Assembly (NCBI RefSeq): GCF_036507355.1
Contig: NZ_AP027877.1
Direction: 5' to 3' (one strand)
DNA from: Escherichia coli
Lineage (GTDB): Bacteria > Pseudomonadota > Gammaproteobacteria > Enterobacterales > Enterobacteriaceae
DNA: 64,000 nt
Made by a program: the position numbers. Below, in pieces: positions 21,001 through 24,000 of this stretch. The first letter of the stretch is position 1, and each line of letters starts with the position of its first letter.

Positions 21001-24000
21001 CTTGAGAGTGTTGGTGATAACGCCTGGATGGGAAAGAAATATGGACGGCTGAATAAAGATGCCTGGCGTGATGATTCGCGACAGAGATTTAAAGAAGCCT
21101 TTCGGGTGTTGAGGCCGCACGGCGTTCTGATTTTTTAATGGAATGAAACGCAAATACCGGTAAGCCAGATTCTGGCACTGACAGACAGAAAACCTGTTAT
21201 CTGTCAACGAACAGGGAAAAAACGATAAAACCCACTGGATTATTTTTATGAAAGAGGCATCCAGTGAGTAGATTCGTAAGGCTACAGATACGTATATCTG
21301 AATAATTAAATTCAGTTCTGTAAATAAAATTTAATCCTTAACCGGATGGATTTCTGCACCCTCAGAACATCAGGAGGCCGCCCGAAAGGGCGGTAGTGAA
21401 ATGCGAAAGTTCAAAATTATTATTGAAACGGGAATAGCTGGTGGAGATTTTGAGGATGTATTCGAAGTGGACGATGACGCAACACCTGAGGAAATTCATG
21501 ACGGAGCATAAGAAATTTTCTTTAACTACTGCAATTACTCATACCACGAAATAAAAGACGATGAGGAAGAACAAAGTGGCTGATTTTTGTTCAGCTAAAT
21601 ATAACATCAGTTTTGAAGAGCGGGATGAACTATTAATGGACTATGGTGAGTTACGCGGTGGAAGTGCTGCTGATGTCGAATCCTAGCGTGATGACTATGA
21701 AGCGGGAAAAACTCCGGTCGAAGCATATTGTGATGAGTGGGGCGATGAATGAGCGAGATTAATTATCAGGAAGGGCATGAAACGGCGGGGCAAGCAAAAC
21801 CAGTGGCATGGCGATATCGCTACGTGAAAAAAGGCGTTACGGACTTTCAGGGGAAGTAGTGGTCTGGTGACTGGAAATATGTACCGAAAAAAGAGGATTG
21901 TAACGACAGGCCGAACTATCAAATTCAGGCCTTATTCACTGCCTCACCAGTCCCAGTTACATCAGAAGAACTGGTTAAAGCTGTGCACTTTTATGAACAA
22001 CTAAAACGCGAAAATCCACCAACATCCGGCAACTAGATTAATGGATTAACTATGTCGGTTAAACGACCAGCCAACTGAAAAAGCGGAAACCTGATTACAG
22101 GTTGCCAGATAAGGCAATGAGCTACCTGGCGCGGAACGGACTGATAAGTATGGGGAATGTTTTACGATGAACCTTTAGACTAAAGAGTTTGTAACGCTAT
22201 GTAAGTGATTTTTTCTGGTTTAGATATTTATATGTCCGGCCAAATTGAGGTGTGTTTAAATGTAATTGCACATTGATTGTAGGAGGAATAATGAAAAACG
22301 CATTGCAGTTTTTGTTTGTTGCGTTCTGGTTGTTCGCATCATGTATGCCCATCATCTTCACAGCAAGGTGAATCGCCACGGATAATCTAGACACTTCCGA
22401 GCCGTTGATAATACTGGTTTTCATATTCTGTCGGTGACATCTGATCGCTGGAACCATGCCGACGCTTACTGTTATAAAACATTTCGATGTAATCAAAAAT
22501 ATCGCTGCGGGCTTCTTCCCGCGTTCCGTAGATCTTTTTCTTTATCCGTTCGCGTTTCAACAACTGGAAAAAGCTTTCTGCAACCGCATTATCATGGCAG
22601 TTACCGCGACGGCTCATGCTGCCATCCAGGCCGTGTGATTTCAGGAACGACTGCCACTCATGGCTTGTGTACTGACTGCCCTGATCCGAATGAACCAGCA
22701 CCTGTTTTTGGGGATTACGGCGCCATACAGCCATCAGCAGTGCGTTCAGGACAATGTCCTTTGTCATCCGGGATTGCATGGACCAGCCGATAATTTTGCG
22801 TGAGAACAGATCAACAACCACGGCAAGATACAGCCAGCCTTCGTGGGTCCTGATGTAGGTTATGTCCGTTACCCAACGCTTATCCGGAGCATCCGGATTG
22901 AACTGTCGCTGGAGCCTGTTGGGCGACACGATACTGGCCTCGCCTTTACGTGCCCGCGGGCTCCGGTATCCGACCTGAGCCTTTATCCCGACACGTTTCA
23001 TCAGTCGCCAGACTCTGTTCACTCCGCACTGTTGCCCGCTGTCCCGCAGATCCAGATGGATTTTGCGATAACCATAGACGCATCCCGATTCCAGCCAGAA
23101 CTGTTTAATCTGCCCTGTCAGCCTCAGGTCTGCCTGATGGCGTTGTGAATGCGGCTGCTGAAGCCAGGCGTAAAAACCACTGGGATGAACATCCAGCACC
23201 CGACAGAGCAGGCGAACAGGCCAGCAACAGGTGTTGTCACGGATAAAGGCGTACCTCAGTCGGACAGCTTTGCGAAGTACGCCGCGGCTTTTTTTAATAT
23301 GTCCCGTTCGTCGGTAACCCGCTTCAGCTCTTTCTGGAGACGGCGGATCTCGGCCTGAGCATCTGACTGTTCTTTATTAGCGGAAGAATCCGGACCGTAC
23401 TTCTTTATCCAGGCGTAAAGGCTGTGGGTGGTGATATCGAGACGTGTTGCAACGCTGGCAACAGAATAACCGCGATCAACAACCTGTTTGACTGCTTCAA
23501 TTTTAAACTCTTCGGGATAACGCTTACCGCTCATGGGCACCTCTCTTTAAGCCATCTTAAATGACTCTGAGGTGTCTGTTAAACCCGTGGCGATTCATAA
23601 TTGATCATGGGTTGTCAGTTAAACTCGTGGCGATTTAAATAGACTAATTGGGAGTGCGTCCATTACTTATATCTTGTAATGTTAACTATCAGAAATTCTT
23701 GTAATGTTAACTATCAGAAATGATACAAAGATAATATGTCTTTAAAGAAAAGGCTGATGGCGAAAAGTGGCCCGATGAGGGCCACAATACGGCTGTCACT
23801 TAGACGTAAATATCAATGGTGCCAGCGGTATTTGTATCGTCTTTTTTCTCTTCTTTTTTATCAGGCTGAACTGTCGCGTCTTCATTCTTTTTCTCTGCCT
23901 GCTGCCTTAACAACTGCTCCAGTTGAGCCCAGAGGCTTTCAATTTGCTTCTGTACCAATGCAGCCATTTCTTTTTTCTGCTGTGTCGTCATCCCCTCTTC

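What the first reader, a model, noticed from the sequence alone, without database searches (positions are those of the whole stretch)
23672..23721. Perfect 2 x 25-bp tandem repeat sharing a motif with the relBE operator
tcttgtaatgttaactatcagaaat occurs twice back to back with no mismatch, about 80 bp downstream of flxA and 75 bp from the IS end. Each unit contains cttgtaatg, the same 9-mer found in the relBE operator region (24628-24636). An exact duplication is recent or selected; it could be a repressor or antitoxin binding site, or a slippage product.
Basis: seen in the sequence. Interest (0 to 1): 0.45.

Follow-up and report, generated by a model that had tools for sequence, protein, structure and literature searches.

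The report
Neutral 25-bp duplication downstream of flxA
A 25-base stretch of non-coding DNA in a defective Qin-type prophage is exactly doubled here, but this is a rare and recent copy-number variant (one copy in E. coli K-12 and about 97% of related genomes) that fails the sequence rules for a RelB antitoxin binding site, so it is ordinary.

Summary
Window 23672-23721 is an exact 2 x 25 bp head-to-tail repeat, 74 bp from an IS3-family element and 78 bp past the flxA stop codon.

It is a minority allele. Of 1184 complete E. coli genomes with this locus, 29 carry two copies (ATCC 8739, porcine O139:H1 strains and a few others). The rest, including K-12, carry one, and none carries three. All 52 IMG/VR contigs, 31 metagenome contigs, 2 species-representative genomes, one phage record and two Enterobacter/Salmonella plasmids also have one copy.

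The DNA flanking the two alleles is identical, with no linked SNP. Every diverged haplotype has one copy, so the duplication is derived and recent.

The repeat lies about 41 bp beyond the flxA terminator, outside any gene, and has no fold of its own.

The RelB-operator idea fails. The relBE operator (relO) needs two abutting 12-bp half-sites, each made of two inverted hexads. The unit has one hexad, scores 10/12 like 30 background sites, and its copies are 25 bp apart in direct orientation.

Best reading: a neutral replication-slippage or template-switch duplication, useful at most as a lineage marker. Low interest.

The parts
23672..23696 (.). Repeat unit 1 (TCTTGTAATGTTAACTATCAGAAAT); this is the extra copy relative to K-12 and most genomes
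   Evidence: TRF; exact pattern search; K-12 locus L002 has a single unit with identical flanks
23697..23721 (.). Repeat unit 2, identical to unit 1
23763..23785 (-). flxA intrinsic terminator: 7-bp G+C stem GUGGCCC/GGGCCAC (23767-23785) followed by UUUU (23763-23766). The repeat lies 41 bp further downstream, outside the flxA transcript
   Evidence: RNA fold (z = -2.66; the hairpin is in both the MFE and centroid structures)
23800..24132 (-). flxA (110 aa, FlxA-like family protein)
   Evidence: ORF list; RefSeq annotation of the identical locus
23707..23735 (+). Weak sigma-70-like match (TTAACT, 17 bp, GATAAT; 9 of 12) whose -35 element lies in unit 2. It is equally present in the one-copy allele, and the region yields about as many such matches by chance
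   Evidence: 3 found against 2.3 expected in the region
23611..23637 (-). Native spacer sequence that resembles the terminal inverted repeat of the neighbouring IS (23 of 27 identical). It is also present in genomes that lack the IS
   Evidence: present in L001 and L002
22369..23597 (-). IS3-family insertion sequence (1229 bp; orfA 23256-23540, orfB 22387-23199). It replaces about 2 kb (ISEsa1-like element plus ydfW) that other two-copy genomes retain
24629..24652 (+). relO, the relBE operator, used as the comparator: half-sites TTGTAATGACAT and TTGTAATTACAA. These are the only 12/12 matches to the half-site rule in the window
   Evidence: definition from PMC2812701

Best explanation
The repeat is a derived, selectively neutral tandem duplication of a 25-bp stretch of non-coding spacer in a Qin-type defective prophage. 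The ancestral and usual state is one copy. In one prophage lineage the 25-mer was copied head to tail, most likely by a replication template switch or slippage. That lineage is now found in ATCC 8739, porcine O139:H1 strains, a few other isolates and the strain behind this window. The mechanism is inferred: there is no microhomology at the junction, but small quasi-palindromes sit at both endpoints. The repeat lies beyond the flxA terminator, in no gene, and is not a credible protein-binding array. Its only practical value is as a lineage marker.
For: Copy number. With the 233-bp two-copy query, 29 records match at 100% over 233 bp. About 1150 match at 89.3% over 208 bp, which is a perfect match missing one 25-bp unit. 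K-12 MG1655, DH5alpha, C600, O26 and O157-type strains are in that group. No row falls between these two classes, so no three-copy allele exists in the collection. Reading K-12 (L002) against ATCC 8739 (L001) shows identical flanks with one and two units respectively.

Other collections. 52 of 52 IMG/VR contigs, 31 of 31 metagenome contigs and 2 of 2 GTDB species-representative genomes carry one exact unit. The two-copy junction is absent from all 100,044 representative genomes. Phage PhiR42_1 and the Enterobacter and Salmonella plasmids have one copy.

Polarity and age. Over 500 bp to the left and 3.3 kb to the right, the seven sampled two-copy chromosomal loci and the window are identical to one-copy K-12, WP7-S17, cq9 and 300709 apart from private singletons. 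No SNP is linked to the duplication. The diverged haplotypes (O26 RM10386, CFSAN064036, plasmid copies) all have one copy.

Position. The repeat lies 41 bp past the flxA terminator U-tract and in no credible ORF. There is no Rfam match and no DNA structure of its own (z = -0.54).

Not an assembly artefact: it appears in 29 independent finished genomes.
Against: The junction has no microhomology, which is less typical of simple slipped-strand duplication.

The allele occurs in host backgrounds that differ by at least 1% at a chromosomal segment some 32-40 kb further along the window. At most 4 of the 29 two-copy genomes can be 99% or more identical to the window there. So either the prophage segment moved horizontally or the duplication arose more than once, and recurrence could hint at a hotspot or at selection.

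The unit shares the words TGTAATGT and TGTTAAC with the left tip of the neighbouring ISEsa1-like element (nominal p about 2e-4, found after the fact). This is unexplained.

No binding or expression experiment was possible.
Confidence: 0.85

Rival explanations
1. The repeat is a secondary RelB or RelB2-RelE binding site (a decoy or auxiliary operator), and doubling it doubles the number of sites.
For: Each unit contains TCTTGTAATG. This reproduces one relO hexad (TTGTAA) with its flanking bases, and it matches both outer arms of the palindromic operator: 24628 on the plus strand and 24646 on the minus strand. The chance of a 9-mer match to the 36-bp operator region is 0.2-1.2%. The site is only about 0.9 kb from relBE.
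Against: relO is defined as two abutting 12-bp half-sites, each with two inverted hexads [A/T]TGT[A/C]A. Dinucleotide changes in either hexad core gave 12- to 36-fold derepression. Inserting 2 or 10 bp between the half-sites gave 45- to 50-fold derepression (PMC2812701).

The unit's best 12-mer, TTGTAATGTTAA, scores 10/12, with both mismatches in the core of the second hexad. Thirty other 12-mers in the window score the same, and only relO scores 12/12. The hexad alone occurs 133 times in the window.

The two copies are direct repeats 25 bp apart, about 2.4 helical turns. The ancestral and usual state is a single unit.
Confidence: 0.03
2. The duplication is the footprint of a transposition event by an IS1202-family element: a 25-bp staggered cut filled in, with the element later lost or never retained. 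An ISEsa1-like member of that family lies next door.
For: Some IS1202-family members make unusually long target duplications, 16-28 bp or 27-28 bp depending on the source (PMC10132070; bioRxiv 10.1101/2022.12.17.520857). An ISEsa1-like element ends about 129 bp from the unit in the undeleted locus. The junction has no microhomology. The unit shares 12 positions covered by 7-mers with the left tip of that element (8 of 50,000 random 25-mers reach this).
Against: ISEsa1 belongs to the subgroup with no detectable target duplication (Table 7 of PMC10132070). The long-duplication subgroup is reported from Firmicutes, Tenericutes and one spirochaete. The family appears to use circular copy-out intermediates, which leave the donor site intact.

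The unit is not adjacent to any IS end. It lacks the AATGTCC core repeated at the ends of the element (read). No genome was seen with an element between two units, although this could not be checked exhaustively.
Confidence: 0.03
3. The duplication has a cis-regulatory effect. It adds a second -35-like TTAACT and A/T-rich DNA upstream of a weak plus-strand promoter (TTAACT, 17 bp, GATAAT) that would drive a transcript antisense to flxA. Alternatively, it changes the spacing between the IS outward end and flxA.
For: There is a promoter-like match at 23707-23735 with its -35 element inside unit 2. The allele has persisted in several host backgrounds.
Against: The match is only 9 of 12, and the region yields as many matches by chance (3 found against 2.3 expected). 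The promoter-proximal unit and its spacing are unchanged by the duplication, so the one-copy allele has the same site. The allele is rare, which argues against an advantage. No transcript data exist.
Confidence: 0.05

Closest known systems
Short tandem-duplication (indel) polymorphisms in bacterial intergenic DNA, produced by replication slippage or template switching
   Same: Exact head-to-tail copies. The copy number differs between otherwise identical loci. The location is non-coding. The minority allele is the derived one.
   Different: Only two alleles (one and two copies) were seen, so it is not a hypervariable VNTR. There is no microhomology at the junction.
relO, the RelB2-RelE operator of E. 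coli relBE (Overgaard et al. 2009, PMC2812701)
   Same: It shares one hexad, TTGTAA, with its flanking bases (the 9-mer CTTGTAATG), and it lies in the same prophage module.
   Different: It lacks the inverted second hexad of a half-site, lacks an abutting second half-site, and does not overlap a promoter. The copies are direct repeats 25 bp apart.
Long target-site duplications of IS1202-family insertion sequences
   Same: The length (25 bp) falls within the 16-28 bp span that PMC10132070 reports for long target duplications. A family member (ISEsa1-like) is the neighbouring element in the undeleted locus.
   Different: The copies are adjacent with no element between them. The neighbouring subgroup makes no detectable duplication. 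The unit lies about 129 bp outside the IS end.

Membership tests
relO-type RelB operator | A 12-bp (pseudo)palindromic half-site made of two inverted hexads [A/T]TGT[A/C]A | tested here: not met
   The best 12-mer in the unit, TTGTAATGTTAA, scores 10/12, with mismatches in the core of the second hexad. Thirty background sites score the same, and only relO scores 12/12 (rule).
relO-type RelB operator | Two half-sites directly abutting, with no spacing tolerated, so that two RelB dimers lie on one face of the helix | tested here: not met
   The hexads in the two units are direct repeats 25 bp apart. Insertions of 2 or 10 bp already abolish repression at relO.
relO-type RelB operator | Overlaps the promoter it controls (-10 to about +17/+20) | tested here: not met
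   The repeat is about 0.9 kb from the relBE promoter, beyond ydfV and flxA. Only a 9/12 promoter-like match lies nearby, at the chance level.
relO-type RelB operator | Bound by RelB2 or RelB2-RelE in vitro or in vivo | not testable with these tools
   This needs a gel shift, footprint or ChIP experiment.
Tandem-duplication copy-number polymorphism | Head-to-tail identical copies | tested here: met
   2.0 copies, 100% identity.
Tandem-duplication copy-number polymorphism | Copy number varies between loci whose flanks are otherwise the same | tested here: met
   29 two-copy against about 1155 one-copy complete genomes; the flanks are identical.
Tandem-duplication copy-number polymorphism | Multi-allelic and hypervariable (a VNTR in the strict sense) | tested here: not met
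   Only one and two copies were found in 1184 genomes, 83 contigs and 2 species-representative genomes.
IS1202-family target-site duplication | Direct repeats of a family-typical length | tested here: inconclusive
   25 bp falls inside the 16-28 bp range quoted in PMC10132070, but not the 27-28 bp quoted for the IS1202 subgroup in the bioRxiv paper.
IS1202-family target-site duplication | The repeats directly flank the element | tested here: not met
   The copies are adjacent to each other. The nearest ISEsa1-like end is about 129 bp away in L004, and that element is deleted in the window.
IS1202-family target-site duplication | The neighbouring element's subgroup generates a target duplication | tested here: not met
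   From the literature only: ISEsa1 is listed with no detectable target duplication after several copies were examined (PMC10132070).

The most novel reading that the evidence does not exclude
The 25-mer is a degenerate end-like or transposase-recognition sequence of the neighbouring IS1202-family (ISEsa1-like) element. Under this reading the exact 25-bp doubling records an abortive or reversed transposition event with a 25-bp staggered cut. That would be the first excision or abortive-insertion footprint described for this poorly understood IS family.
Probability: 0.03. Interest if true: 0.5.

Novelty: new member of a known kind. Interest (0 to 1): 0.07.

Why it matters
It matters little. The duplication could serve as a simple PCR marker (208 against 233 bp) for one lineage of Qin-type prophages.

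The case also shows that a shared 9-mer with a nearby operator is not evidence of shared regulation. The operator's published architecture has to be checked first.

The surroundings are more instructive than the repeat:
- The K-12 'orphan' gene ydfW is the tail of an IS1202-family transposase.
- The block from that IS through flxA, ydfV and relBE to hok travels on enterobacterial plasmids.
- An IS3-family element has landed twice beside a look-alike of its own end.

Tried and rejected
- **RelB operator.** Scanned the whole window with the published half-site rule. The unit is indistinguishable from background.
- **Structured RNA or DNA element.** The only Rfam match in 22000-26500 is a sub-threshold isrK-like hit at 25414-25495, and none overlaps the repeat. 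The DNA fold is not better than shuffles.
- **Three or more copies.** A synthetic three-copy query returned only two-copy loci among its top 12 rows. The ranking shows no intermediate class.
- **More distant homologues to use as an outgroup.** A distant-mode search of phages found one record, identical and with one copy. The locus is essentially invariant wherever it occurs, so polarity had to be inferred from linked SNP haplotypes.
- **Target-duplication footprint.** Read two papers on the IS1202 family. ISEsa1 makes no detectable duplication. I could not find clear inverted repeats for the ISEsa1-like copy by ungapped search (best 14 of 26), so its ends are known only from where homology breaks (L004 about 3354 and 4946).
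- **A 12-nt perfect inverted repeat** (AGTTAACATTAC at L004 3242-3253 against the unit). About 0.3 such pairs are expected by chance in that 3.4 kb by my own estimate, and the flanks do not extend it. I judged it coincidental.
- **Source strain.** No complete E. coli genome has this IS junction. The chromosomal end of the window is at best 99.0% identical to any of them.
- **Not achieved.** I could not list the 11 records with partial matches to see whether any has an element inserted at the unit.

Full report
**1. The observation**

Window 23672-23721 is an exact tandem repeat of the 25-mer TCTTGTAATGTTAACTATCAGAAAT: period 25, 2.0 copies, 100% identity. No other copy with up to 3 mismatches exists in the window, against 0 expected from shuffles. 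The bases on either side do not extend the repeat, so the junction carries no microhomology.

The gene order around it is as follows:
- an IS3-family element at 22369-23597 (minus strand)
- 74 bp of spacer
- the repeat
- 78 bp of spacer
- flxA at 23800-24132 (minus strand)
- ydfV
- relB from 24665, then relE and hokD

This is the flxA-relBE-hokD part of a Qin-type defective lambdoid prophage. The 9-mer CTTGTAATG is present in both units and at 24628-24636.

**2. Copy number elsewhere**

I used the 233-bp two-copy allele as the query against 5,426 complete E. coli genomes. There were 1184 records that covered at least 80% of the query.
- Twenty-nine match at 100% over 233 bp. These are ATCC 8739 and its derivatives, a set of porcine isolates (two records typed O139:H1, many labelled ETEC), NCTC9066, LD39-1, 30COLEC, PSJ-12, LZHX12 and a few others.
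- The rest match at 89.3% over 208 bp, which is a perfect match missing one unit. K-12 MG1655, DH5alpha, C600, J53 and O26 strains are among them.
- Reading K-12 next to ATCC 8739 confirms one against two units in otherwise identical sequence.
- No class lies between these two in the ranking. A synthetic three-copy query returned only two-copy loci among its top 12 rows, so there is no three-copy allele.

A gapped pattern that accepts one to three copies gave the same picture in other collections.
- It found 52 IMG/VR contigs, 31 metagenome contigs and 2 GTDB species-representative genomes. All had the 56-bp span of a single copy, and all 83 IMG/VR and metagenome loci carried one exact unit.
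- The two-copy junction itself is absent from all 100,044 representative genomes.
- Phage PhiR42_1 and two plasmids (Enterobacter IncF, Salmonella IncI) carry one copy. One E. coli record labelled as a plasmid, pE16EC0562-2, carries two.

**3. Polarity and age**

I aligned 500 bp to the left and 3.3 kb to the right of the repeat from eight two-copy and seven one-copy loci.
- The two-copy loci are identical to the common one-copy haplotype (K-12, WP7-S17, cq9, 300709) except for private singletons.
- No SNP is linked to the duplication.
- The haplotypes that do differ (O26 RM10386, CFSAN064036 and the plasmid copies) all have one unit.

One copy is therefore ancestral, and the duplication is derived and young.

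It is nevertheless found in more than one host background. The chromosomal end of the window (uxaB to yneE) is at best 99.0% identical to any complete E. coli genome. None of the 60 best matches is a two-copy strain, and only 64 records reach 99%. Yet the window's prophage DNA is identical to that of ATCC 8739. The cause is either horizontal movement of the prophage segment or a second origin, and I could not decide between them.

**4. What the sequence could do**

On the flxA (minus) strand a 7-bp G+C hairpin (23767-23785) followed by UUUU (23763-23766) forms a good intrinsic terminator. The repeat starts 41 bp beyond it, so it is outside the flxA transcript.
- No credible ORF covers it.
- No Rfam family matches it.
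- Its single-strand fold is no better than shuffles, z = -0.54.
- A plus-strand promoter-like match (TTAACT, 17 bp, GATAAT; 9 of 12) has its -35 element in unit 2. The region yields as many matches by chance, and the one-copy allele has the same site.

**5. The relBE-operator idea**

Overgaard et al. (PMC2812701) define relO as two abutting 12-bp half-sites, TTGTAATGACAT and TTGTAATTACAA. Each holds two inverted hexads [A/T]TGT[A/C]A. Mutating either hexad core derepresses 12- to 36-fold, and inserting 2 or 10 bp between the half-sites derepresses 45- to 50-fold.

Scoring every 12-mer of the window against that rule gave these results:
- Only the two relO half-sites reach 12/12.
- The unit's best 12-mer, TTGTAATGTTAA, reaches 10/12, with both mismatches in the core of the second hexad. 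Thirty other sites score the same.
- The single hexad occurs 133 times in the window.
- The unit also shares 9-mers with ten other places and a 10-mer at 20854.

The two units place their hexads 25 bp apart in direct orientation. So the unit fails the sequence-defined features of the operator. Only an in-vitro binding test could say more.

**6. A lead from the surroundings**

In loci without the window's IS, the DNA to the left of the spacer is ydfW. This proves to be the C-terminal end of an IS1202-family, ISEsa1-like transposase gene. Because some IS1202-family members make very long target duplications, I asked whether the 25-bp doubling could be a transposition footprint.

The literature argues against it.
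- ISEsa1 is listed with no detectable duplication (PMC10132070).
- The long-duplication subgroup is reported from Firmicutes and relatives.
- The family seems to use circular copy-out intermediates (bioRxiv 10.1101/2022.12.17.520857).

By homology breakpoints, the IS ends about 129 bp from the unit.

One oddity remains. Twelve contiguous positions of the unit (TGTAATGTTAAC) are covered by 7-mers shared with the 30-nt left tip of the element. Only 8 of 50,000 random window 25-mers reach that level. The comparison was made after the fact, the word order differs from that of a real end, and the unit lacks the AATGTCC core repeated at the element's ends. I keep this as the low-probability novel reading.

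**7. Verdict**

The repeat is real, but it is a rare, recent and almost certainly neutral tandem duplication in non-coding prophage DNA.
- **Mechanism.** It is inferred rather than shown: a replication template switch or slippage. The endpoints fall in two small quasi-palindromes, CATTAC-N9-GTAATG on the left and TATCA-GAAA-TGATA on the right, which may have helped.
- **Function.** The duplication is not an operator, not a structured element, not an assembly artefact (it appears in 29 finished genomes) and not novel in kind.

Noticed in passing
window 23611-23637 (also L001 4014-4040 and L003 4200-4240): The native Qin spacer contains a look-alike of the neighbouring IS3-family element's terminal inverted repeat. 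It is 23 of 27 identical, which is closer than the IS's own other end (20 of 27), and only these three hits reach 18 of 27 in the window. The IS in the window ends 13 bp to the left of the look-alike. In E. coli OW1E2 the same IS ends about 12 bp to its right. That is two independent junctions beside a copy of its own end, suggesting end-directed targeting.
   Followed up: partly
window 22369-23597 and its junctions: The IS3-family element (1229 bp) has no 3-bp target duplication (agg on one side, taa on the other). It replaces about 2.0 kb (ISEsa1-like element plus ydfW; L001 1993-3999) that every other two-copy genome retains. This points to an IS-associated deletion. The right junction shares ATTCA with the native sequence.
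   Followed up: partly
L004 3354-4946; L005 and L006 (plasmids); K-12 ydfW in L002 3592-3741: The K-12 gene ydfW is the C-terminal fragment of an IS1202-family, ISEsa1-like transposase. The block from the ISEsa1-like element through the spacer, flxA, ydfV and relBE up to hok is about 99.7% identical on an Enterobacter IncF plasmid and a Salmonella IncI plasmid. On the right, homology ends at the start of the plasmids' own hok gene.
   Followed up: partly
window 25199/25200: The window lacks 13 bp (ATGACATCTCTGT) between relE and hokD that are present in all 15 other loci compared. This may affect the hokD leader.
   Followed up: no
window 25414-25495 (+): There is a weak isrK-like Rfam hit downstream of hokD (25.1 bits against a gathering score of 50; E = 0.019).
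   Followed up: no
window 24264-24291 (+): A near-consensus sigma-70 promoter-like site (TTGACA, 16 bp, AATAAT; 11 of 12) lies between flxA and ydfV. It points toward relBE and is antisense to ydfV.
   Followed up: no
window 56000-64000: The chromosomal genes uxaB to yneE are at best 99.0% identical to any of 5,421 complete E. coli genomes, while the prophage DNA is identical to that of ATCC 8739. The source strain is not in that collection. It may be Shigella or an unsampled lineage, and its richness in IS elements would fit Shigella.
   Followed up: no
L004 3354-3383 against the repeat unit: The unit's TGTAATGTTAAC is built from two words found in the left tip of the ISEsa1-like element (TGTTAAC...TGTAATGT). 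Only 8 of 50,000 random window 25-mers match as well. This was found after the fact and is unexplained.
   Followed up: partly
L104 (JAIJJM010000167.1): A 5.5-kb contig binned as a Collinsella MAG carries this E. coli prophage locus exactly. This is almost certainly a binning contaminant.
   Followed up: no
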